Positions 22,356 to 62,674 are shown, numbered from the stretch's first letter. The stretch: DNA of 64,000 bases from Polyangia bacterium (GCA_036494575.1 DASXOE010000020.1:4638-68637); one strand, 5' to 3'. Made by a program: numbers and translations. Notes: generated by a model from the letters alone, not told the origin.

Positions 22356-22388
22356 GGCGGCGGCCTCGGCCGTGCGGCGCTTCCAACC

Positions 22389-23525: not shown

Positions 23526-23581
23526 GGGGGGCTCCCGACGTCTCCGAAGTGCGGGCACGGGCGGCGAGGCTGTGATATCTC

Positions 23582-25675: not shown

Positions 25676-25785
25676 CGGCGGAAACCGTAACCCATCCCGG
25701 TCGAGGCGGCGAGGGGTTGACGGAGCGGATTCTGAATCCGAACCACGACCTTGCGTAGGTCGCTTCGCGATGTTGGAATGCGTCC

Positions 25786-27384: not shown

Positions 27385-27484
27385 AGGTCGCGCCCGAAGG
27401 CCGCGATGCGAGGAGCGGGCGTCGCATCGTCGACCGAACCGACGCCGCTTGCGGGGCCGCGGGCCCGCGGCTAAGTTTTCGCCG

Positions 27485-29782: not shown

Positions 29783-29783
29783 T

Positions 29784-31052: not shown

Positions 31053-31173
31053 GGCGCGAGGAGCGTGCTAGTTTGATTCCAAGATTGGACCAGGCAGCGA
31101 CGGGGATGTTCACTTCAGAGTTCACGTACGCGTCGCACATCGGCACGAGCCGGACCGCCTAGGCGGGCTGACG

Positions 31174-33671: not shown

Positions 33672-33672
33672 C

Positions 33673-35007: not shown

Positions 35008-35016
35008 TTTGGTTCC

Positions 35017-36906: not shown

Positions 36907-36909
36907 GGC

Positions 36910-40018: not shown

Positions 40019-40042
40019 ACCCTTGGGCCCGTGGCACCGCCG

Positions 40043-40819: not shown

Positions 40820-40826
40820 CCGGGCC

Positions 40827-43274: not shown

Positions 43275-44087
43275 ATGCACGGATCATCGCCACAGCGAGC
43301 CCGGGAGGGGGACAAAGCAATGCGAAGCGGCGAATCGTCCGTGACTGCGCTCGGCAGCGCGGACGTCCATGTGTGGCTCCTGGAGGCGCCCGAGGCCGCC
43401 AGCGACGCGCGCGCCGAGCTCTGCGCCGCGCTGCTCTCGGCCGACGAGCGCGCGCGGATGGGCCGCTTTCATTTCGCCGGTGACCGGCGGCGGTATCTGT
43501 TCGCCCACGCGCTCGTGCGCACGACCCTGTCCCGGTACGCGCCGGGCACGCCGCCCGCGCGCTGGCGATTTCGCACGAACGCCCACGGGCGTCCGGAGCT
43601 GCCGCCGGAAGACGGGGGACCGCCGTTGCGATTCAACCTCTCCCACACCGACGGGCTGGTGGCCTGCGCCGTGGCGCTCGACCGGGACGTGGGCGTCGAC
43701 GTCGAGCACCTCTGGCCAGCGACGTTCGACCTCGGCCTCGCCCGGCATCACTTCGCGCCCGCGGAGGTGGCCGGCCTGGAGGCGCTGCCGCCGGAGGCCC
43801 GGCGGGCCCGCTTCTTTGCGCTGTGGACGTTGAAAGAGGCGTACATCAAGGCCAGGGGGCTGGGGCTCGCGCTGCCGCTCGAGCGGTTCGCCTTCGACCT
43901 CGAGGGCCCCGCCATCTGCGTCCGCTTCGATCCCGAGCTGGGGGATGAGCCCGAGCGCTGGCACTTCGCGCGCCTGCAGCCCACCGCCGTTCACGCGCTG
44001 GCGTTGGCCGCCCGCCGCGTGCCCGGAGAAACCCTGAGGGTGCGCCACTGGCCGCCGCCCTCGGATTTTCCTGGGATCGACTCGTGA
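43275..44087 (+). CDS. Sfp-type 4'-phosphopantetheinyl transferase
   Basis: 270 aa. Contains LSADERARMGRFHFAGDRRRYLFAHALVR, FNLSHTDGLVACAV, GVDVE and FALWTLKEAYIKARG. Confidence 0.85.
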   Translation: MHGSSPQRAREGDKAMRSGESSVTALGSADVHVWLLEAPEAASDARAELCAALLSADERARMGRFHFAGDRRRYLFAHALVRTTLSRYAPGTPPARWRFRTNAHGRPELPPEDGGPPLRFNLSHTDGLVACAVALDRDVGVDVEHLWPATFDLGLARHHFAPAEVAGLEALPPEARRARFFALWTLKEAYIKARGLGLALPLERFAFDLEGPAICVRFDPELGDEPERWHFARLQPTAVHALALAARRVPGETLRVRHWPPPSDFPGIDS

Positions 44088-49845: not shown

Positions 49846-49864
49846 GACGAACGAGACGAATGAC

Positions 49865-52800
49865 ATGACGTCAGATCGCGACGAAAGATATCCCCTCTCG
49901 CCGGTGCAGGCCGGGATGCTGTTCAATCGGCTGAGCGCGCCGGCGAGCGGCGTCGACATCGAGCAGATGATCGCGGGCCTGCCCGAGGAGGTGGACGCCG
50001 CCGCGCTCGAGCAGGCGTGGCGTCTGGTCGTCGAACGCCATGCCGTGCTGCGCACGTCCTTCTCCTGGGGCGGCCCCGGCGCGCCCGAGCAGCGGGTGGC
50101 GGCCGCCGTCGAGGTGCCCTTCGCCCTTCACGACTGGCGCGGCGTGCCGAGCGCCGAGCAGGACGAGCGGCTCGAGGCCTTCCTCGTCGACGATCGCCGC
50201 CGGGGCTTCGACCTCGCGCGCGCGCCCCTGCTGCGGTTCGCGCTGTTCCGACGCGGCGCCGACGACGCCCAACTCGTTTGGACGTTCTTCCACGGCGTCC
50301 TCGACGGCGGCTCGTTCGTCGCCATAGTCAACGAGGCCTTCGACGTCTACGAGGCGCTCCGGCGCGGCGAGAAGCCGAGCGCGCCCGCGCCCCTGCCCTA
50401 CCGCGCCCACATCGAGTGGCTCGAGGGCGAGCTCCGCGCCAAGGCGGAGGCGGCGCGCGCCTTTTGGCACGCGCGGCTCGAGGGCTTCGCGGCGCCCAAC
50501 GTGCTGACGGCGGCGGGCTCCGACGGGGCGGCGCCGCGCGGCCACGGCGAACGCGCGTTCCGGCTGTCGCACGGCGAGACCGCCCGCCTGAGGGCGTTCG
50601 GCGAGGCCGCCGGCCTCACGCTCAACACGTTCGTCCAGGGGGCGTGGGCGCTCGTCATCGCGGCGTCGACGGGCGAGGACGACGTGGTCTTCGGCGCGAC
50701 GCGCGCGTGCCGGCGCTCTTCGGTGCCGGGCGCCGAGGGTATGGCGGGCGTCTTCATCAACACGCTGCCGCTCCGCCTGGCCGTCGACGCGGCCGCCTCG
50801 GCCGGCGACTGGCTGCGCGTCGTCCGCGAGCGGCACCGCGAGGTGCGCGCCTTCGAGCACACGCCGCTCGCCGACGTGCTGGCCGCGAGCGACGTGCCGG
50901 GCGACCAGAGCCTGTTCGAGAGCATCATCGTCTTCAACGAGCGGCTCATGGAGGCCGTCATGCAGGCGCAGGGGGGTGCCTGGGCGCGCCGGACCTTCCG
51001 CTGGATCGAGCAGACGAACTTCCCCATCACGCTGTTCGGTTACGCGGAGGACGAGCTCTTGCTCAAGCTCTCGTACGATCGCGCGCGCCTCGACGACGAA
51101 GCAGCGACGCGCTTGACCGAGCGCCTCCGCGCCGTGCTCGCGGCGCTCGCGGCGAACCCCGAGGCGCGCATCGGCGACCTGCCGACGGTCGCGCCCGAAG
51201 AGCGCGCGCTCGTCGTCGAGCGCTGGAACGACACCCGGGTCGACGTACCGCGCGACCGGTGCGTGCACGAGCTCATCGAGGCGCAAGCAGCGGCGACACC
51301 CGACGCCGTGGCCGTCGTCTACCGCGACGCCCGCCTGACGTACCGCGAGCTCGACCAGCGCGCCGACGCCCTCGCGCGGACCTTGCAGGCGCGCGGCGTG
51401 GGACCCGACACGCTCGTGGGCTTGTTCGTCGACCGCTCGCTCGAGATGGTGGTCGGTCTCCTCGGCATCCTCAAGGCCGGCGGCGCCTACGTGCCGCTCG
51501 ATCCCGAGTACCCGACGGAGCGGCTCGCCATGATGCTCGAGGACTCGCAGGCGCGCGTCATCGTGACGAGGACCGCGCTGCGCTCGGCCCTGCCGCCGCG
51601 CGCGGACGCCGAGATCGTGACGGTCGAGCTCGCAGAAGCGTCCGCGCCCGCGGCCGGAGCCCCGACGCTCCACCGCGCCGTCGCGCCGCACAACCTCGCG
51701 TACGTGATCTTCACGTCGGGCTCAACGGGCAGGCCGAAGGGCGTGATGATCGAGCACCGCAACGTCATCAACTTCTTCGCGGGCATGGACGCGCGCATCG
51801 GCGCGGACCGCGGCGTGTGGCTCGCCGTCACGAGCATCTCCTTCGACATCTCGGTGCTCGAGCTCCTGTGGACGCTCGCGCGCGGCTTCGAGGTCGTCGT
51901 GCATGGCGACGGCGATCGCCGCGCCGCCGCCGAAGGGAGCGCGCGCTCCGAGCCGGGTGACGGGCGCGGGCGCATGGACTTCAGCCTCTTTTACTTCGCG
52001 AGCGCCGCTGGCGCCGCGGTCGGGCAGCGCTACCGGCTGCTGCTAGAGGGCACGAAGTTCGCCGACGCGCACGGCTTCTCGGCCGTGTGGACGCCCGAGC
52101 GACACTTCCACGAATTCGGCGGCATCTATCCCAACCCGTCGGTCACGGGCGCCGCGCTCGCCGTGCTGACACGCAACGTGCAGATCCGCGCGGGCTCGGT
52201 CGTGCTGCCGCTGCACAACCCCATCCGCGTCGCCGAGGAGTGGTCGGTCGTCGACAACCTGTCGGGCGGACGCGTGGGCCTGTCGTTCGCGTCGGGCTGG
52301 CACGCCAACGACTTCGCGCTCATGCCCGAGAGCTATGCCGACCGCAAGAACGTCATGATCCGCGGCATCGAGACCGTGCGGCGCCTGTGGCGCGGCGAAT
52401 CCGTCCCGGCGCGCAGCGGCACGGGCGCCGAGATCCAGGTGCGCGTCCTGCCGCGCGCCGTGCAGGCCGAGCCGCCGCTGTGGGTCACGGCCGCCGGCAG
52501 CCCCGACACGTTCAGGTTCGCGGGCGAGCTCGGCGCCAACGTCCTCACCAACATGCTGGGCCAGAGCGTGGCGGATCTCACCGCGAAGATCGCCGTCTAT
52601 CGCGAGGCGCGCCGAGCGCACGGCCACGCCGGCCCCGGGCAGGTCAGCCTCATGCTGCACACGTTCGTGGGCGTCGATCGCGACGAGGTGCGCGCCAAGG
52701 TGCGCGACCCCTTCATGGCCTACCTCGAGACCTCCACCGACCTCATCAAGAAGGCCAAGTGGGAGTTCCCCGCCTTCGCGCAGCCCGGGAAGGATCGGGC

Positions 52801-55594
52801 GGGCGCGCCCGCGGCCCCCGCCGCGCCGGGCGAGGTCGTCCTCACGCCCGAGGAGACGCAGGTCATGATGGCGCACGCCTTCGAGCGCTACTTCACGACG
52901 AGCGGCCTCTTCGGCACGCCGCAAAGCTGCCTCGCCATGGTCGACCGCCTGCGCGAGGCGGGCGTCGACGAGATCGCCTGCCTCATCGACTTCGGCGTGG
53001 CCGACGACGACGTCCTCGCGAGCCTCGTGCACCTCGACGATCTGCGCGCGCGGTGCAACAAGGAGAGCGCCGGGGCGATCGACGCGCCGGCCCCCGAGCA
53101 CGGCATCGCCGCCGAGCTGCGCCGGCATCGGGTCACGCACCTGCAGTGCACGCCCTCGATGGCGCGCATGCTGCTGAGCGAGCCCGAGACGCGCGCCGCC
53201 CTGCCCTCGCTGCGCAAGGTCCTGCTGGGCGGCGAGGCCTTGCCGGAGGCGCTCGCGGCCGAGCTCCTGACCGTGCTCGCGCCCGACGCCGAGCTGCACA
53301 ACATGTACGGCCCGACGGAGACGACGGTTTGGTCGACGACGGCGCGCGTGCGCGCGGGCGCGCCGCTCACGATCGGCCGCCCCATCGCCAACACGCGCGT
53401 CCTCATCCTCGATCGTGACGGCCGGCCCGCGCCCATCGGCGTCGCGGGCGAGCTCCACATCGGCGGCGCGGGCGTCGTGCGCGGCTACCTCGGCCGTGAG
53501 GACCTGACGCGCGAGCGCTTCGTCCCCGACGCGTACGCGCGTGACGCGGACGCGCGCCTCTACAAAACCGGGGATCTCGCGCGCTGGCGCGCCGACGGGG
53601 AGATCGAGTTCCTGGGCCGGCTAGACCACCAGGTGAAGCTCAGCGGGTACCGCATCGAGCTCGGCGAGATCGAGGCGGCGCTCGGGCGCCATCCGGCGGT
53701 CAAGAACAGCGTCGTCGTCGCGCGCGAGGACACGCCAGGCGACAAGCGCCTCGTCGCCTACGTCGTCCCGCGCGACACCGCGAGCTCGCCCGAGGCCGCA
53801 GGCGGGAACGACGCCGTCACGGGCTGGCAAGCCATTTGGAACGAGACCTACGCCGGCGGCGGCGCGCAAGCGCTCACGGCCGACGGAGACGGCCGGGCCG
53901 ACCTCGAAGCCAAGCTCGAAGACGACATCGTCGGCTGGCGCAGCAGCTACACGGGCGAGCTCATCCCGGTCGCCGAGATGCGGGAGTGGCTCGAGCACAC
54001 GGTGGCGCGCATCATGGCGCTGTCGCCGCGGCACGTGCTCGAGATCGGGTGCGGCACGGGCATGATCTTGTCGCGCGTCGCGCCCTCGTGCGCGCGCTAC
54101 GTGGGGCTCGACTTCTCGCCCGCCGTGCTGACGCGCCTGCGCGCGCGCTTGGAGCGGCGCCCCCTGCCCCAGGTCGAGCTGCGCCAGGCGGCGGCACACG
54201 AGCTCGCCGCCATCCAGCCGGCGGGCTTCGACGTCGTCGTGCTGAACTCCGTCGCGCAGTACTTCCCCGACGTTCGCTACCTCATGAACGTGCTGCGGCT
54301 GGCGCTGGACGCACTCGCCCCGGGAGGCGCCGTGTTCGTGGGCGACGTGCGCAGCCTGCCGCTCTTCGAGGCGTTCGCGACGTCCGTCGAGCTCGCGCAG
54401 GCGCCCGACGCGCTCGACGTGGGCGAGCTCGCGACGCGCATCGAACGGCGGCGCCGCCACGACGGCGAGCTCGTGATCGATCCGGAGCTCTTCCACGCGC
54501 TCCGCTCCGAGCTACCCGACCTCGCCGCCGTCGACGTCCAGCTCAAGCGCGGGCTCCACGCCAACGAGATGAGCCGCTTCCGCTACGACGTCGTGCTGCG
54601 CAAGCGCGGCGCCGTCGCCGTGCGCGACGAGGCCGCGGCGGCGGCCGCCTCTCGCGCCTCCGACGTCGCGGCGCCCGTGTCCGCGCAGACCTTCGCCGAG
54701 CTCGAGCGGCTCCTGGCCCAGGCCCCGGCCAACCTCGAGGTGCGCGACGTGCCGAACGCGCGCGTCGCGCGCGAGCTCGACGCGCTGGCGCGGCTCGCGC
54801 AGAAGCCCCGTCCCGCCACCGTCGCCGACCTGCGCGCGCGCCTCGACGGGGGCGGAGCCGCCGGCGTAGAGCCCGAGGCGCTGTGGACGCTGGCGCCGGA
54901 CTACGACGTCGCCATCACCTGGTCGGCCAGCGGACCGCGGGCCTTCGACGCGCGCTTCCGGCGGCGCGACGCCGGCCCGCTGGCTCCGGTGGCGCCCGCC
55001 GACGGCGCGCCCCGCGCCCTGGCCAGGCCCTGGGAGAGCTACGCGCGCGGCCCCGAGCGGCGCGCGAGCGGCGGCGGCGAGCTCGTGTCGGACCTGCGCG
55101 CGCGGCTCAAGCAGACCTTGCCCCCCTACATGATTCCGAGCGCGTTCGTCGTACTCGACGCGCTGCCGCTCACGGCCAATGGGAAGGTCAACCGCAAGGC
55201 GCTCCCCGCGCCCGATCGCGATCGTCACGAGGCTGCCGCCGCCTACGTCGCGCCCGCGAGCGAGCTCGAGCGCATCATCACGGAGGTCTGGCAGGCGCTG
55301 CTCGGGCTCGGCCAGGTGAGCACGCAGGACAATCTTTTCGATCTGGGCGCGAACTCGCTCCTCATGGTGCAGGCCAACGGCCGCCTCAAGACGGCGCTCG
55401 GGCGCGATCTCTCGCTCGTCGAGATGTTCCGCTTCCCCAGCATCGCCACGCTCGCGGCCCACCTGGCCGCCGCGGGGACGGGCGACGGCGCCAAGGCCGA
55501 CGGGCGCTCGGAGGCGGCCGATCGCGGGCAAGACCGCGGCCAGCAGCGCCGCGATGCCTTGTTGCGCCGTCGCCCGCCGCGCGAGCGCTCCTGA
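49865..55594 (+). CDS. NRPS module C-A-T with a doubly interrupted, glycine-type adenylation domain (A[LLM/MOx][MT])
   Basis: 1909 aa from the ATG at 49865, 19 nt after the PKS stop. C: YPLSPVQAGMLF, FFHGVLDGGS (His codon 50291-50293). A: LAYVIFTSGSTGRPKG, SFDISVLE, NMYGPTETT, YKTGDLARW, GRLDHQVKLSGYRIELGEIE, LPPYMIPS, NGKVNRK. T: LFDLGANSLLM (Ser codon 55355-55357). No TE or R domain. Confidence 0.95.
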   Translation: MTSDRDERYPLSPVQAGMLFNRLSAPASGVDIEQMIAGLPEEVDAAALEQAWRLVVERHAVLRTSFSWGGPGAPEQRVAAAVEVPFALHDWRGVPSAEQDERLEAFLVDDRRRGFDLARAPLLRFALFRRGADDAQLVWTFFHGVLDGGSFVAIVNEAFDVYEALRRGEKPSAPAPLPYRAHIEWLEGELRAKAEAARAFWHARLEGFAAPNVLTAAGSDGAAPRGHGERAFRLSHGETARLRAFGEAAGLTLNTFVQGAWALVIAASTGEDDVVFGATRACRRSSVPGAEGMAGVFINTLPLRLAVDAAASAGDWLRVVRERHREVRAFEHTPLADVLAASDVPGDQSLFESIIVFNERLMEAVMQAQGGAWARRTFRWIEQTNFPITLFGYAEDELLLKLSYDRARLDDEAATRLTERLRAVLAALAANPEARIGDLPTVAPEERALVVERWNDTRVDVPRDRCVHELIEAQAAATPDAVAVVYRDARLTYRELDQRADALARTLQARGVGPDTLVGLFVDRSLEMVVGLLGILKAGGAYVPLDPEYPTERLAMMLEDSQARVIVTRTALRSALPPRADAEIVTVELAEASAPAAGAPTLHRAVAPHNLAYVIFTSGSTGRPKGVMIEHRNVINFFAGMDARIGADRGVWLAVTSISFDISVLELLWTLARGFEVVVHGDGDRRAAAEGSARSEPGDGRGRMDFSLFYFASAAGAAVGQRYRLLLEGTKFADAHGFSAVWTPERHFHEFGGIYPNPSVTGAALAVLTRNVQIRAGSVVLPLHNPIRVAEEWSVVDNLSGGRVGLSFASGWHANDFALMPESYADRKNVMIRGIETVRRLWRGESVPARSGTGAEIQVRVLPRAVQAEPPLWVTAAGSPDTFRFAGELGANVLTNMLGQSVADLTAKIAVYREARRAHGHAGPGQVSLMLHTFVGVDRDEVRAKVRDPFMAYLETSTDLIKKAKWEFPAFAQPGKDRAGAPAAPAAPGEVVLTPEETQVMMAHAFERYFTTSGLFGTPQSCLAMVDRLREAGVDEIACLIDFGVADDDVLASLVHLDDLRARCNKESAGAIDAPAPEHGIAAELRRHRVTHLQCTPSMARMLLSEPETRAALPSLRKVLLGGEALPEALAAELLTVLAPDAELHNMYGPTETTVWSTTARVRAGAPLTIGRPIANTRVLILDRDGRPAPIGVAGELHIGGAGVVRGYLGREDLTRERFVPDAYARDADARLYKTGDLARWRADGEIEFLGRLDHQVKLSGYRIELGEIEAALGRHPAVKNSVVVAREDTPGDKRLVAYVVPRDTASSPEAAGGNDAVTGWQAIWNETYAGGGAQALTADGDGRADLEAKLEDDIVGWRSSYTGELIPVAEMREWLEHTVARIMALSPRHVLEIGCGTGMILSRVAPSCARYVGLDFSPAVLTRLRARLERRPLPQVELRQAAAHELAAIQPAGFDVVVLNSVAQYFPDVRYLMNVLRLALDALAPGGAVFVGDVRSLPLFEAFATSVELAQAPDALDVGELATRIERRRRHDGELVIDPELFHALRSELPDLAAVDVQLKRGLHANEMSRFRYDVVLRKRGAVAVRDEAAAAAASRASDVAAPVSAQTFAELERLLAQAPANLEVRDVPNARVARELDALARLAQKPRPATVADLRARLDGGGAAGVEPEALWTLAPDYDVAITWSASGPRAFDARFRRRDAGPLAPVAPADGAPRALARPWESYARGPERRASGGGELVSDLRARLKQTLPPYMIPSAFVVLDALPLTANGKVNRKALPAPDRDRHEAAAAYVAPASELERIITEVWQALLGLGQVSTQDNLFDLGANSLLMVQANGRLKTALGRDLSLVEMFRFPSIATLAAHLAAAGTGDGAKADGRSEAADRGQDRGQQRRDALLRRRPPRERS
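51917..53128 (+). other. Luciferase-like monooxygenase (MOx) domain inserted between A-domain cores A4 and A5
   Basis: The insert contains MDFSLFYFAS.., ..FSAVWTPERHFHEFGGIYPNPSV.., ..LPLHNPIRVAEEWSVVDNLSGGRVGLSFASGWH.. and ..PPLWVTAAGSPDTFRFAGELGANVLT.. Borders were set by alignment with the uninterrupted paralogous A domain at 58202-61537 and are accurate to about +/-30 nt. Confidence 0.8.
53777..55093 (+). other. SAM-dependent methyltransferase domain inserted between A-domain cores A8 and A9
   Basis: SAM motif I HVLEIGCGTGMIL; post-I GLDFS; motif II/III region FDVVVLNSVAQYFPD..LAPGGAVFVGD. Flanked by ..KRLVAYVVPRD and LRARLKQTLPPYMIPS. Borders were set by the paralogue alignment. Confidence 0.75.
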
Positions 55595-55625: not shown

Positions 55626-56525
55626 TCAGGGCGCGCCTGGCCCGAGGCCCGTCAGCTTCTCGCTGACATCCCACAGCCGCGCCGCGACAGCGGCGTCGAG
55701 CGAGCGCGGCGACGAGCGCGCCTCGGCTGAATCGCGGAAGTAGCGGCCGCTCACGCCCTCGAGCGTCGGCGAGGCCGCGACGAACAGGCTCGTCGCGGCG
55801 CCCTCCTTCGGCCCGGGCCTCCCCCGGCGCGTCAGGAAGCGCAGCGGGGCGGGCCGGCCCTCGAAGGCCACGAGCAGGTTCGTGCCGATGACGCCCGGGT
55901 GCAGGCAGTTCGCCGTCACGCCAGTGCCCGCGAGACGCCGCGCGAGCTCGAACGTGAACAGCATGTTGGCGTGCTTCGATTGATAGTAGGCGTCGAGGCG
56001 CTCGTAGGGCCTTTTCTCCCTCCCGAGATCGTCGAAGTCGAGGACGGCCATGCCCTCGACCTGCGAGGCGACGTTGACGATCCGCGCAGGCGCGCTCGCC
56101 TTCAAGGCGTCGAGCAAGAGGTTCGTCAGCAAGAACGGGGCGAGGTGATTGACGGCGAGCTGAGTCTCGAGTCCGTCGACGGTCGTCGAGCGCTTCGGCG
56201 TGATCACGGCCGCGTTGTTGACGAGCACGTGCAGGTGGTCGTGGCGGGCGCGGACCTCGGCGGCGAGCCGGCGCACCTCCGCCTGCGACGACAGGTCGGC
56301 CACGAGGAGCTCGACGTCGCGGCGCCCCGTGCGCCGCCCGATCTCCGAGACGGCGTCGCGGCCGCGCGCCGCATCGCGCCCGGCCACGATCACCGTGGCG
56401 CCACGCTCGGCGAGGCCGAGCGCCGTCTCGCGCCCGATGCCGCTCGTGGCGCCCGTGACGAGGCAGATCCGTCCCGCCATCGAGGGCGCGGAAGCCGGGG
56501 CGCCCCCGGGAGAAGCGCCGCTCAT
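55626..56525 (-). CDS. Short-chain dehydrogenase/reductase (retinol-dehydrogenase/WWOX-like classical SDR)
   Basis: 300 aa from the ATG at 56525, which overlaps the upstream stop (ATGA). Contains ICLVTGATSGIGRETA, NNAAV, NVASQ and YYQSKHAN (YxxxK). Confidence 0.85.
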   Translation of the reverse strand: MSGASPGGAPASAPSMAGRICLVTGATSGIGRETALGLAERGATVIVAGRDAARGRDAVSEIGRRTGRRDVELLVADLSSQAEVRRLAAEVRARHDHLHVLVNNAAVITPKRSTTVDGLETQLAVNHLAPFLLTNLLLDALKASAPARIVNVASQVEGMAVLDFDDLGREKRPYERLDAYYQSKHANMLFTFELARRLAGTGVTANCLHPGVIGTNLLVAFEGRPAPLRFLTRRGRPGPKEGAATSLFVAASPTLEGVSGRYFRDSAEARSSPRSLDAAVAARLWDVSEKLTGLGPGAP

Positions 56526-57403
56526 GGCGCCGCCCGCGCGACGCGCGCCCCGCCAGCGACCAGCGTCGCGCGCGCCCAGGCGTCGATGGACGCGAAAAGC
56601 GCGTCTTGCTGGCTCCGCAGCGTGAGGGTGTGATCCGCGATGTTCATGAACTCGACTCGAACGCGCGGATGACCGCGCAGCGCCGGGAAGGTGTCGCCGA
56701 ACTGTCCCGCGTAATTGTAGAACTCCGTCATACCGCCTCCCGTGAACACGAAGAAGAGCTCGGCGTCGCGCGCCAAGATTGCTTTCAGCTCCGCGAGGCA
56801 GATTTCCCGCGGCGGGAACTCGCGCACGAAGCCCACGCCTCCGGGGTTGTCGCCCGCAGGCGCCCCGCCAGCCTGCGCGCCGGCACGGGCCTTCCACCAG
56901 GAGAGCGGGCTCGCGGCGACGCGGCGCCAGCTGCGCGCGCTCAGCAGGTGGCGTCCGTACTGGCGGACGTAGTAGCCGTTCGTGCGATAGGCGGCGCCGT
57001 CGATGAGCACGGCGCCCACGACGCGCGCGTCCTCGTGCGCGAGACGCTGCGCGTTCTCCGCGCCCGCGCACAGGCCCATGGGAACGAACCGGTCGGCGAT
57101 CCCAGACGCCGCGAGAAAGTCCATGGCCTCGATCCCCTCGGCGAGCATGCTCTGCTCGAGGCTCAGCTCGTCGCGGCGCGGCTCGCTCTCGCCAAGCCCC
57201 GAGTAATCGAAGCGCAACACGGGCAGGCCGGCCGCCGCCAGCTGGCGCGCGAGCGTCACGTAGAAACGGTTGGGACCGACGCGGTGAAGCAGCCCCGCGT
57301 TGAGCAGAAGGACGGCGGGCCGCCCCGCGGCGCCGCCCGCTGGCTCGGTGAGAATGCCCGACAGCGACTTGGCGGCGCCGAAGGTGACGGGACGCTCCTT
57401 CAC
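56522..57403 (-). CDS. Alpha/beta-fold hydrolase with Cys at the nucleophile elbow (G-L-C-A-G); resembles exosortase-A-system hydrolase 1
   Basis: 293 aa from the GTG at 57403 (GTGA overlap with the upstream stop). Contains PVLRFDYSGLGESE, FVPMGLCAGAENA and a His candidate in NIADHTL. Confidence 0.75.
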   Translation of the reverse strand: MKERPVTFGAAKSLSGILTEPAGGAAGRPAVLLLNAGLLHRVGPNRFYVTLARQLAAAGLPVLRFDYSGLGESEPRRDELSLEQSMLAEGIEAMDFLAASGIADRFVPMGLCAGAENAQRLAHEDARVVGAVLIDGAAYRTNGYYVRQYGRHLLSARSWRRVAASPLSWWKARAGAQAGGAPAGDNPGGVGFVREFPPREICLAELKAILARDAELFFVFTGGGMTEFYNYAGQFGDTFPALRGHPRVRVEFMNIADHTLTLRSQQDALFASIDAWARATLVAGGARVARAAP

Positions 57404-58197
57404 GACTCGCTCCTCGACAGCCACGCGGCGATGAGGTCCTGCGTCTGGCGCGCGCCCGCCGTGCCCTCGACGCGGTGTTGCTTCCACACCTCGGCCTCGG
57501 CGAGCACCTCGTGATCGACGCGCGCGCCCCGCGCCGCGAGCCTGGCGTCCAGGCGGTCCGCTCCTTCGAGCGCGGCGCGCTCGATGATGAGGGCCCGCGG
57601 CGCCGTGCGCGGCAGGTGGGCGAGGTCGACGGCGGCGATCGAGCGCCGCATCGCCTCGGTCACGCGGAACCCCAGGATCTCGTCGCCGCCGTCGGAGACC
57701 TGCGCGGGCGGAAGGCGGCGCCAGGTGGCGTAGGAGTCCCGCCAGGCGCGTTGAGCCGCGAAGCCCGCCTCGAGGTACTTCGCCCCCTCTGCGACCGGTT
57801 CCCAGAGCACGAGGCGGCCGACGTCCTCGCGCCGCGCGGCCGCGAGCGCGGCGAGCGTCGCGCCGAAACGAAGCCCGAGCAGCGTGACGTGCGCGACGCC
57901 CTTGCCGCGCTTGGCCTCCTCGACGGCCGCGGCGACGTCACCGAGCCACACGTCGACGTCGCCGTGCTCGGTGGCGCCGGCCGAGTCGCCCGCCCCCGAG
58001 TAGTCGAACCTCAGCACGGAGAAGCCGTCCTTGGCGAGACGCACGGCCAGCTGGCGCAACACCCGGTGCGCGCGGATGGCCTCTTGCCACAGCGGCGCGC
58101 ACACGACGAGCGCGCGCGACGTGGCCGCGGCCCGCGGCGGCTCGTGCCAGACCCCGAACAGCGAGCGCGCTGGTTCGCCGAAGTAGAAAGCCGGCAC
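57400..58197 (-). CDS. Alpha/beta-fold hydrolase-like protein with Arg at the nucleophile position (G-L-R-F-G); resembles exosortase-A-system hydrolase 2
   Basis: 265 aa. The GTG start lies 4 nt after the NRPS stop. Contains SVLRFDYSGAGDSAG and HVTLLGLRFGATLAALAA. Confidence 0.7.
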   Translation of the reverse strand: MPAFYFGEPARSLFGVWHEPPRAAATSRALVVCAPLWQEAIRAHRVLRQLAVRLAKDGFSVLRFDYSGAGDSAGATEHGDVDVWLGDVAAAVEEAKRGKGVAHVTLLGLRFGATLAALAAARREDVGRLVLWEPVAEGAKYLEAGFAAQRAWRDSYATWRRLPPAQVSDGGDEILGFRVTEAMRRSIAAVDLAHLPRTAPRALIIERAALEGADRLDARLAARGARVDHEVLAEAEVWKQHRVEGTAGARQTQDLIAAWLSRSES

Positions 58198-58201
58198 GAC
58201 C

Positions 58202-61200
58202 TCACTCCTTCGAGATCATGCGCTTGAGCGCTCCGAAGACCCCGCGCGCCTTGGGCGCATCGAGGCCGCGCGCCTGATCGCACTTGGCGGCGACCTGGGC
58301 GAGGTTCTGGAGAATGAGCTCGGCGACGCTGAGGCGCTTTTTCAACCGCTGCTCGATGTGGTGCACGACCTGCGTCGACAGCAGCGAGTGCCCGCCCAAA
58401 TCGAAGAAGTTGTCGTAGATCGACACGCGCGGCACCCCCAGCACCTGCTGCCAGATCTCGGCGATGGCCTGCTCGGTCGGCGTGCGCGGGGCCACGAAGC
58501 TGTCGACGACGCCGTCGACCGCGCCGGCTCCGGCGCCGCCTTGGACGGCGGCGGCCTGCGGCGCCGGCAGCGCCTTGCGATCGACCTTGCCGTTCGGCGT
58601 CAGCGGCAGCCGCTCGAGCGTGACGAAGGCGCTCGGGACCATCGGCTCCGGGAGCCGCTCGCGCAACATCCGGCGCAGGTCGGCGGCCGCGGGCACGGCG
58701 CCCGCGAGGTACGCGACGAGGCGCTGGTCGCCCGCCTGGCCTGATTCACCGGGCCGCGCGACGACGACCGCCTCCCGAGCGCCCGACACCTCGCGCAAGA
58801 CGAGCTCGACCTCGCCGAGCTCGACGCGGTGGCCGCGGATCTTGACCTGGTGATCGAGGCGCCCGAGGAACTCGACGCGGCCGTCGCCGAGATAGCGGCA
58901 GAGATCGCCCGTGCGGTAGAGCCGGCCCGCTCCGAACGGGTTCTCCACGAACCGCTCGGCCGTGAGCTCCGGACGCCCCAGGTATCCGCGCGCGACGCCC
59001 GCGCCCCCGATGTACAGCTCCCCCGGGACCCCGATGGGCACCGGCTCGCGGTGGGCGTCGAGAATGTAGAGCGACGTGTTGGCGAGGGGCCGGCCGATCG
59101 GGATGGGTTGCGAGACGCCGCGCGACAGCGCGTCTCGATCGACCCGGAACGTCGTCGAATAGATCGTCGTCTCCGTCGGGCCGTACCCGTTGAAGAGGTC
59201 GCCCCCGAACGCTGCCAGCAGGTCGCGCGCGAGCGCGGGCGGCAGCGCCTCGCCGCCCAGAATCATGACCTCGAGCCCGCCGAGCGCCGCGCGGGCGGTG
59301 GCGTCGGCGACGAGCAGGCCCGCCATCGACGGCGTGCACTGAAAATGCGTCACGCCGTGGGCCGACACGGCGGCCGCGAAGGCGCGGGCCTTGTCGTCCT
59401 CCTCCGCCTGCACGATCACGGTGAAGCCGCGCGTGACCGTCCACAAGAGCTCGAGCACCGAGATGTCGAACGAGAGGCTCGTCACAGCGAGCCAGACGCC
59501 GGGCTTCTTGTGATCTGGCTTCGCGTGATCTGGCTTCGCGTGATCTGGCTTCGCGCCGAGCGCGGCGTCCATGCCGGCGAACAGGTTCGAGGCCTGGCGG
59601 TGCTCGAGCATCACGCCCTTGGGAGTGCCCGTCGAGCCGGACGTGTAGATGACGTAGGCGAGATTGTCGGGCCGCGCGCTCGCCTTCGCGTCGCCGTCGT
59701 CGTCCAACCGGCCATCGTCGCGGTGGCGCGCGATGGCGCTCGCCTCGGCGTCGAGGCAGAGGGCGCGCGCCGCGCCGAGCGGCAGCTCGGCCCCGATCGA
59801 GGAGACCGTCACGACGACGCCGACGCGCGAGTCGCCGATCATCTGCGCGAGCCGCGCCTTGGGGTAGGCGGGATCGAGCGGGAGGTACGCGCCGCCCGCC
59901 TTGAGGACCGCGAGGACGGCGACGACGATGTCCGGGCCGCGCGGCAGGCACACCCCGACGAGCCCGTCCGGCCCGACGCCGAGCTCGCGCAAGTGCCGCG
60001 CGAGGCGATTGGCGCGACGCTCGAGCTCGTCGTAGGTCAGCGCGTCTTCTCCCGTGCGCACGGCGACTTGCCCCGGCGTGCGCGCGGCCTGCCGCTCGAA
60101 TTCGGCGTGAATGCAGCTCGGCGTCGTGGCCGTCGCCGTCTCGTTCCACTCCGTGAGCACCCGCCGGCGCTCCGCGTCCGTGATCACGGGGAGCCGCGAG
60201 AGCCGCTCGTCGGGATGCGCGACCCCGGCCGCGATGACGTGGGCGAAGTTGGCGATGAAGCGCGAGATCGTCTCCCCGTCGTAGAGGTCGGAGCTGTACG
60301 TGAAGTAGCCCACGAGACCGTCGCGGGCCTCCTCGAGCTGCGCGAGGAGGTCGAACATCGAGTCGCCGTGGGGCGCGTCGACGGACGTCACCGTCACGCC
60401 AGGCAGCGTGAGCGCCGTGTCCGGCGCCACGAGGTAGCCGATCATGATCTGGAAGAACGGGTTGTGGCTGGCGTCGCGCGCGGGGCGCAGCACCTCGACG
60501 ATCTTCTCGAACGGCACGTCTTCGTGGGCCGCCGCGCCCGCGATGACCTCGCGCGCGCGCCCGAGCAGCTCGCGAAACGTGGGATCGCCCGCCAGGCTCA
60601 CGCGCAGCACGACCGTCGCGGCGTAAAAACCGACCGACTCCTCGATCTCGGTGCGTCCGCGGTTGCCGAAGGGCGACCCGACGAGAACGTCGTCCTGTCC
60701 GGTGTAGCGCTGGAGGAGCAGCGCGAACGCCGCGAGCAACCCGGAGAACGAGGTGGTCTTCTCCTGGCGGCACAGCGCCGCGAGCGCCGCGGCGCCCTCG
60801 CGCGTCGCGAGGTGCGCGCGCAGCCGGTGGCCGCGTCCGCTCGGCGTCGCCGGCCGCGGCCGATCGGACGGCAGCTCGGCCGATGGCAGCTCGCCGCTCA
60901 GCCGCTCGCGCCAATAGCTCACGAGGCGCTCGAGCTCCGGGCCCTGCAGCAATTCCTTTTGCCACAGCGCATAGTCGGCGTACTGGATCGCGACATTGGG
61001 CAGCGGCGAAGGCCGGCCGGCCGCGAAGGCCGCGTAGAGAGCCGACAGCTCGTTGAAGATGATCGAGATCGCGATGCCGTCGACGACGATGTGGCTCGCG
61101 TTGACGAGGAACACGTGGTCGTCCGCGCCGAGGCGCACGAGCCGGGCCCGCACGAGCGGACCCACCTTGAGATCGAACGGCGCCGACGCCGCCTCGGCGA

Positions 61201-61537
61201 GGATGCGCCCGAGCTCCGCCTGGCGCGCCGGGGCCGACAGCGGCGACAGATCCTCGACGGGCAGCGGGATCGAGAGCGCGGGCGCGACGACCTGGACGGG
61301 CACGCCGGCCTCGGAGGCGAAGGTCGTGCGCAGCGACTCGTGGCGCGCGACGACCTCATTGAGGGCGCGCTCGAGCACGGCCGCGTCGATCGGACCTTTC
61401 AGGCGCGCCGCCGTGGGAACGTTGTACGCGCCGCTCCCCGGCTGGAGTTGGTCCAAGAACCAGAGCCTCTGCTGCGAATACGACGTCGGGAAGACGAAGA
61501 CCTCGTCGTCACCACCGCTGGGAGCATCCGCGTTCAT
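58202..61537 (-). CDS. NRPS module C-A-T (uninterrupted glycine-type A domain, paralogue of the 49865-55594 module)
   Basis: 1111 aa. C: FPTSYSQQRLWFLDQL, NASHIVVDGIA. A: LAYVIYTSGSTGTPKG, SFDISVLE, NGYGPTETT, YRTGDLCRY, GRLDHQVKIRGHRVELGEVE, LPEPMVPS, NGKVDRK. T: FFDLGGHSLLS. No TE or R domain. Confidence 0.95.
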   Translation of the reverse strand: MNADAPSGGDDEVFVFPTSYSQQRLWFLDQLQPGSGAYNVPTAARLKGPIDAAVLERALNEVVARHESLRTTFASEAGVPVQVVAPALSIPLPVEDLSPLSAPARQAELGRILAEAASAPFDLKVGPLVRARLVRLGADDHVFLVNASHIVVDGIAISIIFNELSALYAAFAAGRPSPLPNVAIQYADYALWQKELLQGPELERLVSYWRERLSGELPSAELPSDRPRPATPSGRGHRLRAHLATREGAAALAALCRQEKTTSFSGLLAAFALLLQRYTGQDDVLVGSPFGNRGRTEIEESVGFYAATVVLRVSLAGDPTFRELLGRAREVIAGAAAHEDVPFEKIVEVLRPARDASHNPFFQIMIGYLVAPDTALTLPGVTVTSVDAPHGDSMFDLLAQLEEARDGLVGYFTYSSDLYDGETISRFIANFAHVIAAGVAHPDERLSRLPVITDAERRRVLTEWNETATATTPSCIHAEFERQAARTPGQVAVRTGEDALTYDELERRANRLARHLRELGVGPDGLVGVCLPRGPDIVVAVLAVLKAGGAYLPLDPAYPKARLAQMIGDSRVGVVVTVSSIGAELPLGAARALCLDAEASAIARHRDDGRLDDDGDAKASARPDNLAYVIYTSGSTGTPKGVMLEHRQASNLFAGMDAALGAKPDHAKPDHAKPDHKKPGVWLAVTSLSFDISVLELLWTVTRGFTVIVQAEEDDKARAFAAAVSAHGVTHFQCTPSMAGLLVADATARAALGGLEVMILGGEALPPALARDLLAAFGGDLFNGYGPTETTIYSTTFRVDRDALSRGVSQPIPIGRPLANTSLYILDAHREPVPIGVPGELYIGGAGVARGYLGRPELTAERFVENPFGAGRLYRTGDLCRYLGDGRVEFLGRLDHQVKIRGHRVELGEVELVLREVSGAREAVVVARPGESGQAGDQRLVAYLAGAVPAAADLRRMLRERLPEPMVPSAFVTLERLPLTPNGKVDRKALPAPQAAAVQGGAGAGAVDGVVDSFVAPRTPTEQAIAEIWQQVLGVPRVSIYDNFFDLGGHSLLSTQVVHHIEQRLKKRLSVAELILQNLAQVAAKCDQARGLDAPKARGVFGALKRMISKE
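59510..59555 (-). repeat. Perfect 15-bp x3 in-frame tandem repeat encoding (AKPDH)3 in the A3-A4 loop of the NRPS
   Basis: The plus strand reads gtgatctggcttcgc three times in a row. The protein reads GAKPDHAKPDHAKPDHKKPG, where the paralogue has only GADRG. Confidence 0.95.
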
Positions 61538-61585: not shown

Positions 61586-62674
61586 CTATCCCCTATCGCC
61601 CACCTCGAGCTCCGCGACCACCGGGTAATGGGTCGAGACGTGCACCTCGAGGCGAGAGAACGACAGGAAGCGGAAATGCCCGTCGGCGAACACCCGATCG
61701 AGGCGCAGCCAGGTCACCTTCTTGCGCGCGGGGAAGGTGTAGCCGAAGCCGCTCCCAACCTCGGCGAAGCCGTCCTGGTAGGCGCCGAGGTAGCGCCCGA
61801 GCTCCCAGCTCGACGAAGGCAGGTTGGTGTCGCCCGCGATGAGGACCGGGTAAGTCGAGGCAGCCGCGTGCTCGGCGACAGCGCTCACCTGGAGCTTACG
61901 TAAGGTGGCGTTGCGTTCGAGCTTGTGGAAGGCCTCGTGGTTGACGAAGAACCTTCCGCTCGCGAGCTCGTGAAGCAGGCCGCCGGCAATCAGTCGATCG
62001 AAGGCGCCGTGGGGCGAGACCGGGTGGATGTTGTAGAGATCGAGGGGCCCGCCCGGCGCGGCGATGCGATAACGAACGAAGTTCGGGTCGTGCTTCTCGC
62101 CGGCGTGCGGGAGCCACGGCGGCGCGTAGACGTCGGTGATGGCGTACTTGCTCGCGACGATGAACTGACCGTCGCGCCGGACGGTGTAGCCGGGCAGGGC
62201 CTCGGCGAGCGGTCGCACCTCCTCGCTGCGCGCCTCCTGCATACAGACGACGTCGGGATCGACCGAGCGGATCGCCGCCACGAGCTCGGGGGCGCTCGAC
62301 GAGCCGAGATCGATGTTGCAGCTCATGACGCGCAGGTGGACCGAGCCGGGCTTGGGCGCGCGCGGGCCCGACACCTTCAACCCCATGAGGGGGAAGAGCA
62401 GCAGGAGCAACGCCGCCGCCTGGGTGAGCAGCCAGCGACGCGGCCGCACCAAGGTCAAAGCCAGCGTGAGGAATGGCAGCGGCAGGCCGAAGCCGGCGCG
62501 CGGCAGATAGAGCGTCACCGCCGTCAACCACCAGCGGTCGCCGATGCCGCGCAGGGCGAGCGCGACGAGCAGGAGCGTCACCGGATAGGCGACGGCGAGC
62601 GCGAGGACGGCGAGACGCAGCCGCGTCCACACGGTTCGGCGCGCGCTCGGACGCCCTTCGACGGAATCAGCCAC
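61586..62674 (-). CDS. Membrane-anchored endonuclease/exonuclease/phosphatase (EEP) family protein
   Basis: 362 aa. The N-terminal ~100 aa has about 3 hydrophobic helices. EEP motifs: VMSCNI, VVCMQEA, IAGDTNLP, and a C-terminal ..HVSTHYPVVAE. GTG start. Confidence 0.75.
   Translation of the reverse strand: MADSVEGRPSARRTVWTRLRLAVLALAVAYPVTLLLVALALRGIGDRWWLTAVTLYLPRAGFGLPLPFLTLALTLVRPRRWLLTQAAALLLLLFPLMGLKVSGPRAPKPGSVHLRVMSCNIDLGSSSAPELVAAIRSVDPDVVCMQEARSEEVRPLAEALPGYTVRRDGQFIVASKYAITDVYAPPWLPHAGEKHDPNFVRYRIAAPGGPLDLYNIHPVSPHGAFDRLIAGGLLHELASGRFFVNHEAFHKLERNATLRKLQVSAVAEHAAASTYPVLIAGDTNLPSSSWELGRYLGAYQDGFAEVGSGFGYTFPARKKVTWLRLDRVFADGHFRFLSFSRLEVHVSTHYPVVAELEVGDRG

What the first reader, a model, noticed from the sequence alone, without database searches (positions are those of the whole stretch)
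56522..58197. Translationally coupled pair of alpha/beta-fold proteins with non-serine nucleophile elbows (Cys and Arg) where a thioesterase would be expected
Seen in sequence: the protein at 56522-57403 has G-L-C-A-G (FVPMGLCAGAENA) at the nucleophile elbow and a candidate catalytic His in NIADHTL. The protein at 57400-58197 has G-L-R-F-G (LLGLRFGATLAAL), so Arg replaces the nucleophile. Both share the early motif (V/P)LRFDYSG(A/L)G(D/E)S, showing distant paralogy. They are coupled to each other by a GTGA overlap, and to NRPS2 upstream (4-nt gap) and the SDR downstream (ATGA overlap). Established knowledge: exosortase-A-associated hydrolase 1 and hydrolase 2 always occur as an adjacent pair of unknown function, and Cys-nucleophile alpha/beta hydrolases exist (dienelactone hydrolase type). 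Inference: the Cys enzyme could be an acyl- or peptidyl-transferase that takes the chain from the T domains via a thioester intermediate. The Arg variant could be a non-catalytic partner or scaffold. Together they would substitute for the missing TE and direct the product to a non-water acceptor.
Basis: partly seen in the sequence, partly recalled or inferred. Interest (0 to 1): 0.65.

Follow-up and report, generated by a model that had tools for sequence, protein, structure and literature searches.

The report
Paired Cys/Arg hydrolases replacing a thioesterase
Two adjacent alpha/beta-hydrolase genes sit where a polyketide/peptide assembly line normally carries its release enzyme: one has a catalytic cysteine, the other is catalytically dead with arginine in the same position. 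The same pair recurs next to carrier-protein systems in hundreds of bacterial genomes, which points to a widespread, uncharacterised product-release or transfer device.

Summary
All four genes are on the minus strand: NRPS C-A-T (61537-58202), H2 (58197-57400, elbow G-L-R-F-G), H1 (57403-56522, elbow G-L-C-A-G, His258) and an SDR (56525-55626). They are linked by a 4-nt gap, a GTGA overlap and an ATGA overlap.

AlphaFold2 models and profile alignments to solved serine hydrolases place Cys112 and Arg110 exactly on the nucleophile elbow. The residues define their families:
- Cys is kept in 120/120, 82/82 and 141/142 homologues; His in all complete homologues.
- Arg is kept in about 117/120 and 86/87 homologues.
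- H2 also lacks the catalytic His and the HG oxyanion motif.

The nearest families are TIGR03100 and TIGR03101, but both proteins score below their cut-offs.

In 87 H2 copies from many phyla, H1 follows H2 in 75. In 57 the pair sits directly after a terminal T/ACP domain. T-H2 and H2-H1 fusions occur naturally. No TE domain is present in the window.

Best reading: a two-part, trans-acting off-loading module, with a dead adaptor (H2) and a Cys acyl-enzyme (H1). The final acceptor is unknown. The window and several relatives lie in exopolysaccharide loci, so transfer to a glycan is possible. No literature on the pair was found. There is no biochemical evidence.

The parts
57400..58197 (-). H2: 265-aa alpha/beta-fold protein with Arg110 (codon 57868-57870) at the nucleophile elbow (G-L-R-F-G). 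It has no catalytic His (Trp238 in that column) and no HG motif (C33-A-P instead). Predicted dead adaptor.
   Evidence: Translation. TIGR03101 100.1 bits against a cut-off of 202.75, and PF12146 43.8 bits. AF2 pLDDT 94. Conservation. PDB profile alignment. hhalign.
56522..57403 (-). H1: 293-aa alpha/beta-fold protein with Cys112 (codon 57068-57070) at the elbow (G-L-C-A-G), His258 (56630-56632) and Asp135 (56999-57001) after strand beta6. Predicted Cys acyl-enzyme.
   Evidence: Translation. TIGR03100 79.5 bits against a cut-off of 168.45. AF2 pLDDT 90.6. Cys and His invariant. Aligned on the Ser and His of 9pjb.
58202..61537 (-). NRPS2: a C-A-T module that ends with its T domain and has no TE. 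Its stop codon lies 4 nt before the H2 start.
   Evidence: Pfam Condensation, AMP-binding and PP-binding only. T domain at 58268-58492. Junction.
55626..56525 (-). Short-chain dehydrogenase, translationally coupled to H1 by an ATGA overlap. It is kept at this position in the 77%-identical relative L088.
49802..55594 (+). NRPS1: C-A-T, with a luciferase-like monooxygenase and a methyltransferase inserted in the A domain. No TE. Convergent with the SDR-H1-H2-NRPS2 operon.
44191..49845 (+). PKS module KS-AT-KR-DH-ACP, upstream of NRPS1.
43275..44087 (+). 4'-phosphopantetheinyl transferase.
61586..62674 (-). Endonuclease/exonuclease/phosphatase-family protein upstream of NRPS2. Syntenic in L088.
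21618..43216 (.). Exopolysaccharide locus. Its best hits are XrtA/PEP-CTERM-system families, all below cut-off: priming transferase, export protein (23582-24184), GT2 and GT4 transferases, flippase, two deacetylases, a Wzy_C protein, two AsnB-type amidotransferases, a tyrosine autokinase and a chain-length determinant. No exosortase gene was found.

Best explanation
H2 and H1 form a two-part, trans-acting off-loading module for acyl or peptidyl thioesters held on carrier proteins. Here it serves a PKS-NRPS-NRPS line that has no thioesterase.

Proposed steps, all inferred:
1. H2 is a catalytically dead paralogue that occupies the TE position. It docks on the terminal T domain of NRPS2 and pairs with H1.
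2. Cys112 of H1, activated by His258 (with Asp135 after strand beta6 as the likely acid), attacks the T-bound thioester and forms an S-acyl-enzyme.
3. A nucleophile resolves the acyl-enzyme. It could be water, an internal group of the chain, or an external hydroxyl or amine. Which one is not determined.

Shown directly: the fold, the elbow positions, conservation of the residues, loss of the catalytic residues in H2, conserved gene order, natural fusions, and absence of a TE.
For: Fold and residue placement:
- Both AF2 models are confident alpha/beta hydrolase folds, with Cys112 and Arg110 on the nucleophile elbow. Foldseek finds only Hydrolase_4-type esterases.
- Profile alignments put Cys112 and His258 on the catalytic Ser and His of 9pjb, and Arg110 on the Ser of 9pic.

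Conservation:
- Cys: 120/120, 82/82, 141/142. His: 76/76, 142/142. Position 135 is D/E in 140/142 cluster representatives but only D59/N16/E4 across the 83 genome loci.
- H2 Arg: 86/87. H2 has Trp where H1 has His, and C-A-P where serine hydrolases have C-H-G.

Genomic context:
- Of 87 H2 copies, 75 have H1 immediately downstream and 8 have it divergently adjacent.
- 57 copies lie within 1000 nt of a terminal T or PKS C-terminus (median 129 nt). 50 lie within 450 nt, which is too short for a TE domain.
- Further Pfam-annotated examples show the same arrangement.

Fusions:
- C-A-T-H2 is a single protein in L002. One open frame (no stop codon) also joins the NRPS and H2 in L019, L047 and L067, and a T-H2 fragment exists (P0219).
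- H2-H1 is a single protein, or one continuous reading frame, in L018, L027, L031, L042, L053, L055, L071, L072, L084, L085 and L087, and in P0244, P0288, P0317 and P0372.

Absence of a TE:
- The window's megasynthases carry no Thioesterase or reductase domain.
- A jackhmmer search seeded with the EntF TE found nothing in any fetched locus. This is a weak negative.

A third context also has a carrier-protein thioester donor: the operons ACP, acyl-CoA dehydrogenase, amino acid-[ACP] ligase, DUF1839, GH2-like protein, fused H2-H1.
Against: - There is no biochemical or structural evidence for acylation of Cys112, for an H2-H1 complex or for T-domain docking. No multimer prediction or model coordinates were available.
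- About 30 of 87 copies are not next to a detected carrier domain. In 8 of these the pair sits at the head of the cluster with H1 divergently transcribed.
- The Burkholderia cenocepacia and Cupriavidus metallidurans copies lie in EPS clusters where no carrier protein was detected.
- The acid residue is not invariant: D135 is D59/N16/E4 in one sample.
- H2 keeps a nearly invariant Cys33 (83/87) next to the active-site region, so H2 may not be inert.
- The Pfam support for H1 is marginal (27.7 bits against a cut-off of 27).
Confidence: 0.62

Rival explanations
1. The pair is a carrier-protein-dependent acyltransferase whose acceptor is a sugar, a lipid-linked repeat unit or the exopolysaccharide itself. 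It would graft the PKS/NRPS product, or an aminoacyl group in the simpler systems, onto a glycan. This is a specific version of the best explanation that fixes the acceptor.
For: - The window carries an XrtA/PEP-CTERM-like EPS locus directly beside the assembly line.
- The syntenic relative L088 is flanked by GT4, a deacetylase and a Pel-like gene.
- L089 has A-T, H2 and H1 next to GH2, GT4, UDP-galactopyranose mutase and a sugar epimerase.
- In L001 a PKS, H2 and H1 are followed by glycosyltransferases.
- In L075 the pair lies among XrtA chain-length-determinant and PEP-CTERM outer-membrane genes.
- The Burkholderia and Cupriavidus fused copies lie inside Wza/Wzc/GT4/flippase clusters.
- The amino acid-[ACP] ligase operons always include a GH2-like protein.
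- Glycan genes were found near 28 of 80 genome loci.
Against: - Most NRPS-terminal loci showed no glycan gene within 10 kb, and no background control was run.
- Several loci are instead followed by peptide-export ABC transporters.
- Both proteins look cytoplasmic and soluble.
- No acceptor-binding feature was identified.
Confidence: 0.25
2. H1 is a SyrC/CmaE/CysB-type shuttle that moves an acyl or aminoacyl group from one T domain to another. It is not a release enzyme.
For: - Known shuttles are stand-alone enzymes that form covalent aminoacyl-enzyme intermediates between T domains (PMC8748450, PMC7966384). From my own knowledge, SyrC and CmaE use an active-site Cys.
- The window has two megasynthase operons that converge, and each ends in a T domain.
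Against: - The pair follows the last module in most loci. It also occurs with single A-T proteins or single ACPs, where no second T domain is evident.
- Known shuttles act alone, without a dead partner.
- No sequence comparison with SyrC or CmaE could be made.
Confidence: 0.08
3. The two proteins are ordinary editing (type II) thioesterases or generic esterases, with no special role.
For: They have the alpha/beta hydrolase fold and lie next to an NRPS.
Against: - Neither matches the Thioesterase family in Pfam or any TE model in NCBIfam at E<=0.01.
- The nucleophile is Cys in one and absent in the other.
- The assembly line has no cis-TE for which they could proof-read.
- Both the pairing and the residues are strictly conserved.
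Confidence: 0.04
4. H2 is not inert. Its nearly invariant Cys33, which lies beside Arg110, is a second thiol. On this reading the two proteins form a relay (T to H2-Cys33 to H1-Cys112) or a composite active site.
For: - Cys33 is kept in 83/87 copies and Arg110 in 86/87, and Pro35, Glu39, Trp132 and Pro134 are also nearly invariant.
- A neighbouring Arg can lower a thiol's pKa (own knowledge).
Against: - A Cys occupies the same strand position in the unrelated serine hydrolase 9pic (C-H-G), so it may be a packing residue.
- Four H2 copies lack it.
- No coordinates were available to test solvent exposure.
Confidence: 0.1

Closest known systems
TIGR03100 / TIGR03101 (hydrolase 1 and hydrolase 2, exosortase A system-associated; function unknown)
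   Same: - They are the best-scoring families for H1 and H2 (full length for H1, profile positions 8-249 of 266 for H2).
- They occur as an obligatory adjacent pair of two divergent alpha/beta hydrolases.
- XrtA-type EPS genes lie nearby.
   Different: - Scores are less than half the curated cut-offs: 79.5 against 168.45, and 100.1 against 202.75.
- No protein sampled here reached the cut-offs, including the pair in an XrtA locus (L075).
- Here the partner system is a PKS-NRPS line rather than an acyl-CoA ligase plus ACP.
- No exosortase gene was found in the window.
NRPS thioesterase domains with a Cys nucleophile (SulM, ObiF)
   Same: - Alpha/beta fold, with Cys on the elbow after strand beta5.
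- They act on the thioester of the last T domain (PMC11298585).
   Different: - Those are cis domains of the Thioesterase family, with the acid after beta7.
- They form beta-lactam or beta-lactone rings and have no dead partner.
- H1 is a separate Hydrolase_4-like protein. Its probable acid lies after beta6, and it is always paired with H2.
SyrC / CmaE / CysB / LgnA aminoacyl shuttles
   Same: They are stand-alone enzymes that take an aminoacyl group from a T domain onto an active-site residue and pass it on.
   Different: - They act alone and move cargo between two T domains in mid-pathway.
- Sequence relatedness to H1 was not tested.
Pks13 thioesterase domain (mycolate to trehalose) and the Dlt D-alanylation system (own knowledge, not tested here)
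   Same: In both, a carrier-protein-bound acyl or aminoacyl group is handed to a sugar or glycopolymer rather than to water. This is the logic suggested by the EPS context.
   Different: - Pks13 TE is a cis Ser domain.
- Dlt uses an MBOAT (DltB) and DltD.
- Neither has a Cys enzyme plus an Arg pseudo-enzyme pair.
ABHD5/CGI-58-type alpha/beta-hydrolase pseudoenzymes (own knowledge)
   Same: The elbow nucleophile is replaced (Asn there, Arg here), and the protein acts as a partner or activator of a catalytic lipase.
   Different: They are eukaryotic, unrelated in sequence context, and have no carrier-protein link.

Membership tests
TIGR03100 hydrolase 1, exosortase A system-associated | HMM score at or above the curated cut-off (168.45 bits) | tested here: not met
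   79.5 bits, aligned over profile positions 2-271 of 274. The best score among 68 relatives was E 1e-31, also below the cut-off.
TIGR03100 hydrolase 1, exosortase A system-associated | Always adjacent to a TIGR03101-type second hydrolase | tested here: met
   GTGA overlap with H2. H1 is adjacent to H2 in 83 of 87 copies.
TIGR03100 / TIGR03101 | Found in an exosortase A (XrtA) / PEP-CTERM EPS system | tested here: inconclusive
   Six window genes have XrtA-system families as best hits (TIGR03007, 03018, 03108 twice, 03088, 03027), and the priming transferase also matches TIGR03013. All are below cut-off. No exosortase gene was detected among the scanned ORFs.
TIGR03101 hydrolase 2, exosortase A system-associated | HMM score at or above the curated cut-off (202.75 bits) | tested here: not met
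   100.1 bits. The best among 77 relatives was E 2.1e-38, below the cut-off.
Thioesterase (type I / type II TE, Pfam Thioesterase family) | Match to the family model and a GxSxG serine nucleophile | tested here: not met
   No Thioesterase hit at E<=0.01 in Pfam or NCBIfam. The elbows read GLCAG and GLRFG. An EntF-TE jackhmmer search does not reach them.
Alpha/beta hydrolase fold (Hydrolase_4, PF12146) | Fold with a nucleophile elbow between strand beta5 and helix C; Pfam gathering score | tested here: met
   H2 43.8 bits and H1 27.7 bits against a cut-off of 27. AF2 pLDDT 94 and 90.6. Foldseek TM 0.6-0.75 to Hydrolase_4 esterases.
Alpha/beta hydrolase catalytic triad | Nucleophile, His and acid all present | tested here: inconclusive
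   H1 has Cys112 and His258 invariant, with Asp135 mostly D/E. H2 lacks both the nucleophile and the His. The geometry could not be measured because no coordinates were available.
Dienelactone hydrolase (Cys-type) | Match to the DLH family model | tested here: not met
   No DLH hit in Pfam at E<=0.01. 'Dienelactone hydrolase' appears only as an automatic JGI name on some homologues.
PHA synthase PhaC (GxCxG lipase box) | Match to PhaC family models | tested here: not met
   No PhaC model among the Pfam or NCBIfam hits, and none among the PDB fold or sequence matches listed.
SyrC/CmaE aminoacyltransferases | Sequence homology, and T-to-T transfer through an active-site Cys | not tested
Only the literature description was read.

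The most novel reading that the evidence does not exclude
The H2/H1 pair is an ancient, widespread device with two components. H2 is a dead alpha/beta-hydrolase adaptor with Arg in the nucleophile seat. H1 is a Cys acyl-enzyme. Together they take acyl, aminoacyl or lipopeptidyl groups from carrier proteins and graft them onto exopolysaccharide or its precursors. On this reading, the window encodes a lipopeptide-decorated EPS made by a PKS-NRPS line plugged into an XrtA-type polysaccharide pathway. This would also give the 'exosortase A-associated hydrolases 1 and 2' their first function.
Probability: 0.22. Interest if true: 0.85.

Novelty: new variant of a known kind. Interest (0 to 1): 0.66.

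Why it matters
- **An unrecognised release route.** Release chemistry decides the final structure of polyketides and non-ribosomal peptides. The known routes are cis-TE, reductase, terminal C domains and a few trans enzymes. A strictly conserved two-protein module (Cys enzyme plus Arg pseudo-enzyme) found after terminal carrier domains in many phyla would be an additional route.
- **Scale.** At least 576 loci were found in one scan of species-representative genomes. The H1 profile matches 3,866 protein clusters (50% identity) at E<=1e-30.
- **Product prediction.** Genome-mining tools would mispredict products for these 'TE-less' clusters.
- **A function for orphan families.** It would give a testable function to two families that have been annotated only as 'exosortase A system-associated hydrolases' since their definition.
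- **Carrier proteins and polysaccharides.** It would link carrier-protein chemistry to exopolysaccharide loci, including a Burkholderia cenocepacia EPS cluster that probably corresponds to the biofilm cluster Bcam1330-Bcam1341 (correspondence not verified).

Tried and rejected
- **Locus search with the H1 alignment.** The search for related loci with the H1 alignment failed because no stretch was conserved enough. The H2 alignment worked.
- **Literature.** Two searches for the exosortase-associated hydrolases returned only one incidental mention, Bcam1334. A search for paired hydrolases in chain release returned nothing relevant except the Cys-TE paper. One query was rejected for its syntax.
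- **Bona fide TIGR members.** I tried to sample true TIGR03100/03101 members to inspect their elbows. Every candidate scored below cut-off, including the XrtA-context pair L075 and the A-T-linked pairs L034 and L038.
- **Plasmid searches.** They gave no record annotated as an exosortase hydrolase. They did uncover the amino acid-[ACP] ligase operons and the Burkholderia and Cupriavidus EPS clusters.
- **Fold searches.** They gave only generic esterases. There was no TE-, DLH- or PhaC-specific match, so those readings were dropped.
- **Cys33 of H2 as a relocated nucleophile.** I considered it and down-weighted it, because a serine hydrolase (9pic) has Cys at the same position.
- **Exosortase gene in the window.** None was found.
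- **EntF-TE jackhmmer.** It found no TE in any locus. It had no positive control, so it counts only as weak evidence.
- **Glycan-gene frequency.** It has no background control and was not used as proof.
Full report
**1. The observation**

The region holds four co-directional genes on the minus strand:
- an NRPS module C-A-T, 61537..58202;
- H2, 58197..57400 (265 aa);
- H1, 57403..56522 (293 aa);
- a short-chain dehydrogenase, 56525..55626.

The junctions are as described:
- TGA-GGTC-GTG between NRPS2 and H2, with AAGGAG upstream;
- a GTGA overlap between H2 and H1, with GAGGAG upstream;
- an ATGA overlap between H1 and the SDR.

The ORF listing offers a longer H1 ORF from 57487. However, the family profile starts exactly at the 57403 codon.

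**2. Is the elbow assignment right?**

Yes. The AlphaFold2 models are confident (H1 pLDDT 90.6, H2 94.0). They place Cys112 between strand 106-111 and helix 113-124, and Arg110 between strand 104-109 and helix 111-121.

Independent profile searches of the PDB agree:
- The H1 motifs GlCsG and aDHtf align on GLSMG and GDHTF of the serine hydrolase 9pjb.
- The H2 motif GLRlG aligns on GFSLG of 9pic.
- C33-A-P of H2 aligns on the C-H-G oxyanion motif of 9pic.

A profile-profile comparison shows that H1 and H2 are homologous over their full length (99.3%, E 2.8e-20). Cys and Arg fall in the same column, and H2 has Trp where H1 has His258. H2 therefore lacks the nucleophile, the His and the HG motif.

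Foldseek finds only generic Hydrolase_4-type esterases, at TM 0.6-0.75 and 14-22% identity. No TE, dienelactone hydrolase or PHA synthase appears among the top matches.

**3. The residues define the families**

| Sample | H1 Cys112 | H1 His258 | H1 position 135 | H2 Arg110 | H2 Cys33 |
|---|---|---|---|---|---|
| 120 database homologues each | 120/120 | – | – | about 117/120 | – |
| 80 genome loci plus other fetched loci | 82/82 | 76/76 complete sequences | D59/N16/E4 | 86/87 | 83/87 |
| 142 further 50%-identity representatives | 141/142 | 142/142 | D/E 140/142 | – | – |

Asp135 lies just after strand beta6. That is the acid position typical of NRPS TE domains (PMC11298585).

The family is large. 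The H1 profile finds 3,866 cluster representatives at E<=1e-30. A single pattern scan of species-representative genomes found at least 576 H2-encoding loci across Myxococcota, Gemmatimonadota, Acidobacteriota, Proteobacteria, Bacteroidota, Planctomycetota, Chloroflexota and Actinomycetota.

**4. Family assignment**

TIGR03100 is the best NCBIfam hit for H1, matched over its full length, and TIGR03101 is the best hit for H2, matched over profile positions 8-249 of 266. Both score less than half the curated cut-offs: 79.5 against 168.45, and 100.1 against 202.75. None of the relatives tested reached the cut-offs, including a pair inside a genuine XrtA locus.

The proteins therefore belong to a broader clade around those two families, not to the families as curated. 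There is no hit to Thioesterase, DLH or PhaC models.

I found no publication on the pair. The only mention is a table entry for Bcam1334 of Burkholderia cenocepacia.

**5. Context elsewhere**

Pairing, in 87 H2 copies:
- H1 lies immediately downstream on the same strand in 75.
- H1 is divergently adjacent in 8.
- H1 is missing in 4. Two of these clearly, and one probably, are cut by a contig end; the fourth (L016) lacks H1.

Position relative to carrier domains:
- 57 copies lie within 1000 nt downstream of a terminal T domain or PKS C-terminus, with a median distance of 129 nt.
- 50 copies lie within 450 nt. That leaves no room for a TE domain.
- Pfam-annotated contigs show the same picture: PKS-H2-H1 and C-A-T / H2 / H1.

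Natural fusions:
- C-A-T-H2 is one protein in L002. A single open frame joins the NRPS and H2 in L019, L047 and L067 as well. A T-H2 fragment also exists (P0219).
- H2 and H1 form a single protein, or one continuous reading frame, in at least eleven loci and four cluster representatives.

These fusions support two inferences: H2 works at the T domain, and H2 works together with H1.

Three other contexts exist:
- An XrtA EPS locus in Luteibacter (L075).
- Operons of ACP, acyl-CoA dehydrogenase, amino acid-[ACP] ligase, DUF1839, a GH2-like protein and fused H2-H1. These occur in Gemmatimonadota, Azospirillum and Mycetohabitans.
- Wza/Wzc/GT4/flippase EPS clusters in Burkholderia cenocepacia and Cupriavidus metallidurans. 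Here no carrier protein was detected.

**6. Context in the window**

The assembly line consists of:
- a PPTase, 43275-44087;
- a PKS, KS-AT-KR-DH-ACP, 44191-49845;
- NRPS1, C-A-T with a luciferase-like monooxygenase and a methyltransferase inserted in the A domain, 49802-55594;
- on the opposite strand, NRPS2 (C-A-T), followed by H2, H1 and the SDR.

No TE or reductase domain is present in any scanned ORF. A few small ORFs were not scanned.

Directly upstream, at 21.6-43.2 kb, lies a polysaccharide locus. Its best hits are XrtA/PEP-CTERM-system families, all below cut-off:
- chain-length determinant (TIGR03007, 248 bits against a cut-off of 279);
- tyrosine autokinase;
- two AsnB-type amidotransferases (TIGR03108, 633 bits against a cut-off of 817);
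- GT4 glycosyltransferase;
- export protein;
- priming transferase.

The locus also has GT2 transferases, a flippase, deacetylases and a Wzy_C protein. No exosortase gene was found.

The 77%-identical relative L088 keeps the whole arrangement and is flanked by GT4, deacetylase and Pel-like genes. The 66%-identical relative L089 has only A-T + H2 + H1, next to GH2, GT4, UDP-galactopyranose mutase and a sugar epimerase.

**7. Mechanism**

- Shown: the fold, the elbow residues, their conservation, the loss of catalytic residues in H2, the gene order, the fusions, and the absence of a TE.
- Inferred: H2 is a dead adaptor that docks the pair on the terminal T domain. Cys112 of H1 takes the chain as a thioester, with His258 as base and Asp135 as the probable acid. 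A nucleophile then resolves the acyl-enzyme.
- Acceptor: a Cys nucleophile keeps the energy of the thioester, as in the Cys-TEs SulM and ObiF and in carrier-to-carrier shuttles. That favours transfer or demanding ring closures over simple hydrolysis, but this is an argument by analogy. The acceptor is unknown.
  - For a glycan acceptor: the recurrent polysaccharide context here and in L001, L075, L086-L089. Glycan genes were found near 28 of 80 genome loci, with crude seeds and no control.
  - For free products: in other loci the pair is followed by peptide exporters.

**8. Rivals**

- A SyrC/CmaE-like T-to-T shuttle is unlikely. The pair follows the last module, and it also occurs with a single A-T or ACP.
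- An editing TE or generic esterase is contradicted by the HMM results, the residues and the strict pairing.
- A polysaccharide esterase that is adjacent only by coincidence is contradicted by the T-H2 fusions.
- A catalytic role for H2 through Cys33 cannot be excluded. It is weakened because a serine hydrolase has Cys at the same position.

**9. Verdict**

- Its chemistry remains unproven, and strict family membership fails.
- The feature is not unique to this window. It is a large, uncharacterised family.
- I rate it a new variant of a known kind (trans-acting alpha/beta-hydrolase off-loading enzymes). Interest is moderately high, because it is widespread, mechanistically odd and directly testable.

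Noticed in passing
window 49802-55594 (+): The A domain of NRPS1 is interrupted by both a luciferase-like monooxygenase (residues 725-1057) and a methyltransferase (about residues 1390-1517), ahead of the T domain. The same architecture is kept in L088.
   Followed up: partly
window 59501-59554 (-): A perfect 15-nt tandem repeat, three copies of GCGAAGCCAGATCAC, encodes (AKPDH)x3 inside the A domain of NRPS2.
   Followed up: no
window 21618-43216: Polysaccharide locus whose components best match XrtA/PEP-CTERM-system families, all below cut-off. No exosortase gene was found among the scanned ORFs. Several large ORFs (24155-25675, 25786-27384, 27449-29782) have no significant Pfam or NCBIfam match (one has only a weak glycosyltransferase-like NCBIfam hit).
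   Followed up: partly
window 19236-21095 (-): A SpoIIE-type phosphatase and a STAS-domain protein (a partner-switching pair) sit at the edge of the polysaccharide locus.
   Followed up: no
window 13445-16939 (-): Two ABC-F family ATPase genes lie in tandem.
   Followed up: no
window 9441-11540 (+): In the peptide chain release factor 3 gene, the family match begins only at residue 164. Either there is a long N-terminal extension or the ORF start is too early.
   Followed up: no
L014 9035-10000 (also L015, L022, L028, L063, L076): In Variovorax and Janthinobacterium loci (…C-A-T-C-T, then H2, H1), a stretch of about 270 aa lies between the last T domain and H2. The one copy scanned (L014) has no Pfam or NCBIfam match.
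   Followed up: partly
L016 9995-10780: An H2 copy lies between a T domain and a KS. No H1 was detected within 10 kb.
   Followed up: no
L027 4322-11779; L084 5351-12939; L085 4983-12981: A conserved operon: ACP, acyl-CoA dehydrogenase, amino acid-[ACP] ligase, DUF1839, GH2-like protein, fused H2-H1. It occurs in Gemmatimonadota, Azospirillum and Mycetohabitans.
   Followed up: partly
L087 8938-10725; L086 about 9070-10794: H2-H1 genes (one fused 595-aa protein in L087, probably fused in L086) lie inside Wza/Wzc/GT4/flippase exopolysaccharide clusters of Burkholderia cenocepacia and Cupriavidus metallidurans. The Burkholderia gene is probably Bcam1334 of the biofilm EPS cluster described in PMC3584217.
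   Followed up: partly
L013, L023, L037, L040, L043, L059, L061, L073: A subgroup where H1 is divergently transcribed from H2. In seven of the eight loci H2 is the first gene ahead of an A domain or an A-KS…C-A assembly line, so the pair sits at the head of the cluster rather than at its end. L059 has the divergent pair but no NRPS/PKS domain was detected there.
   Followed up: no
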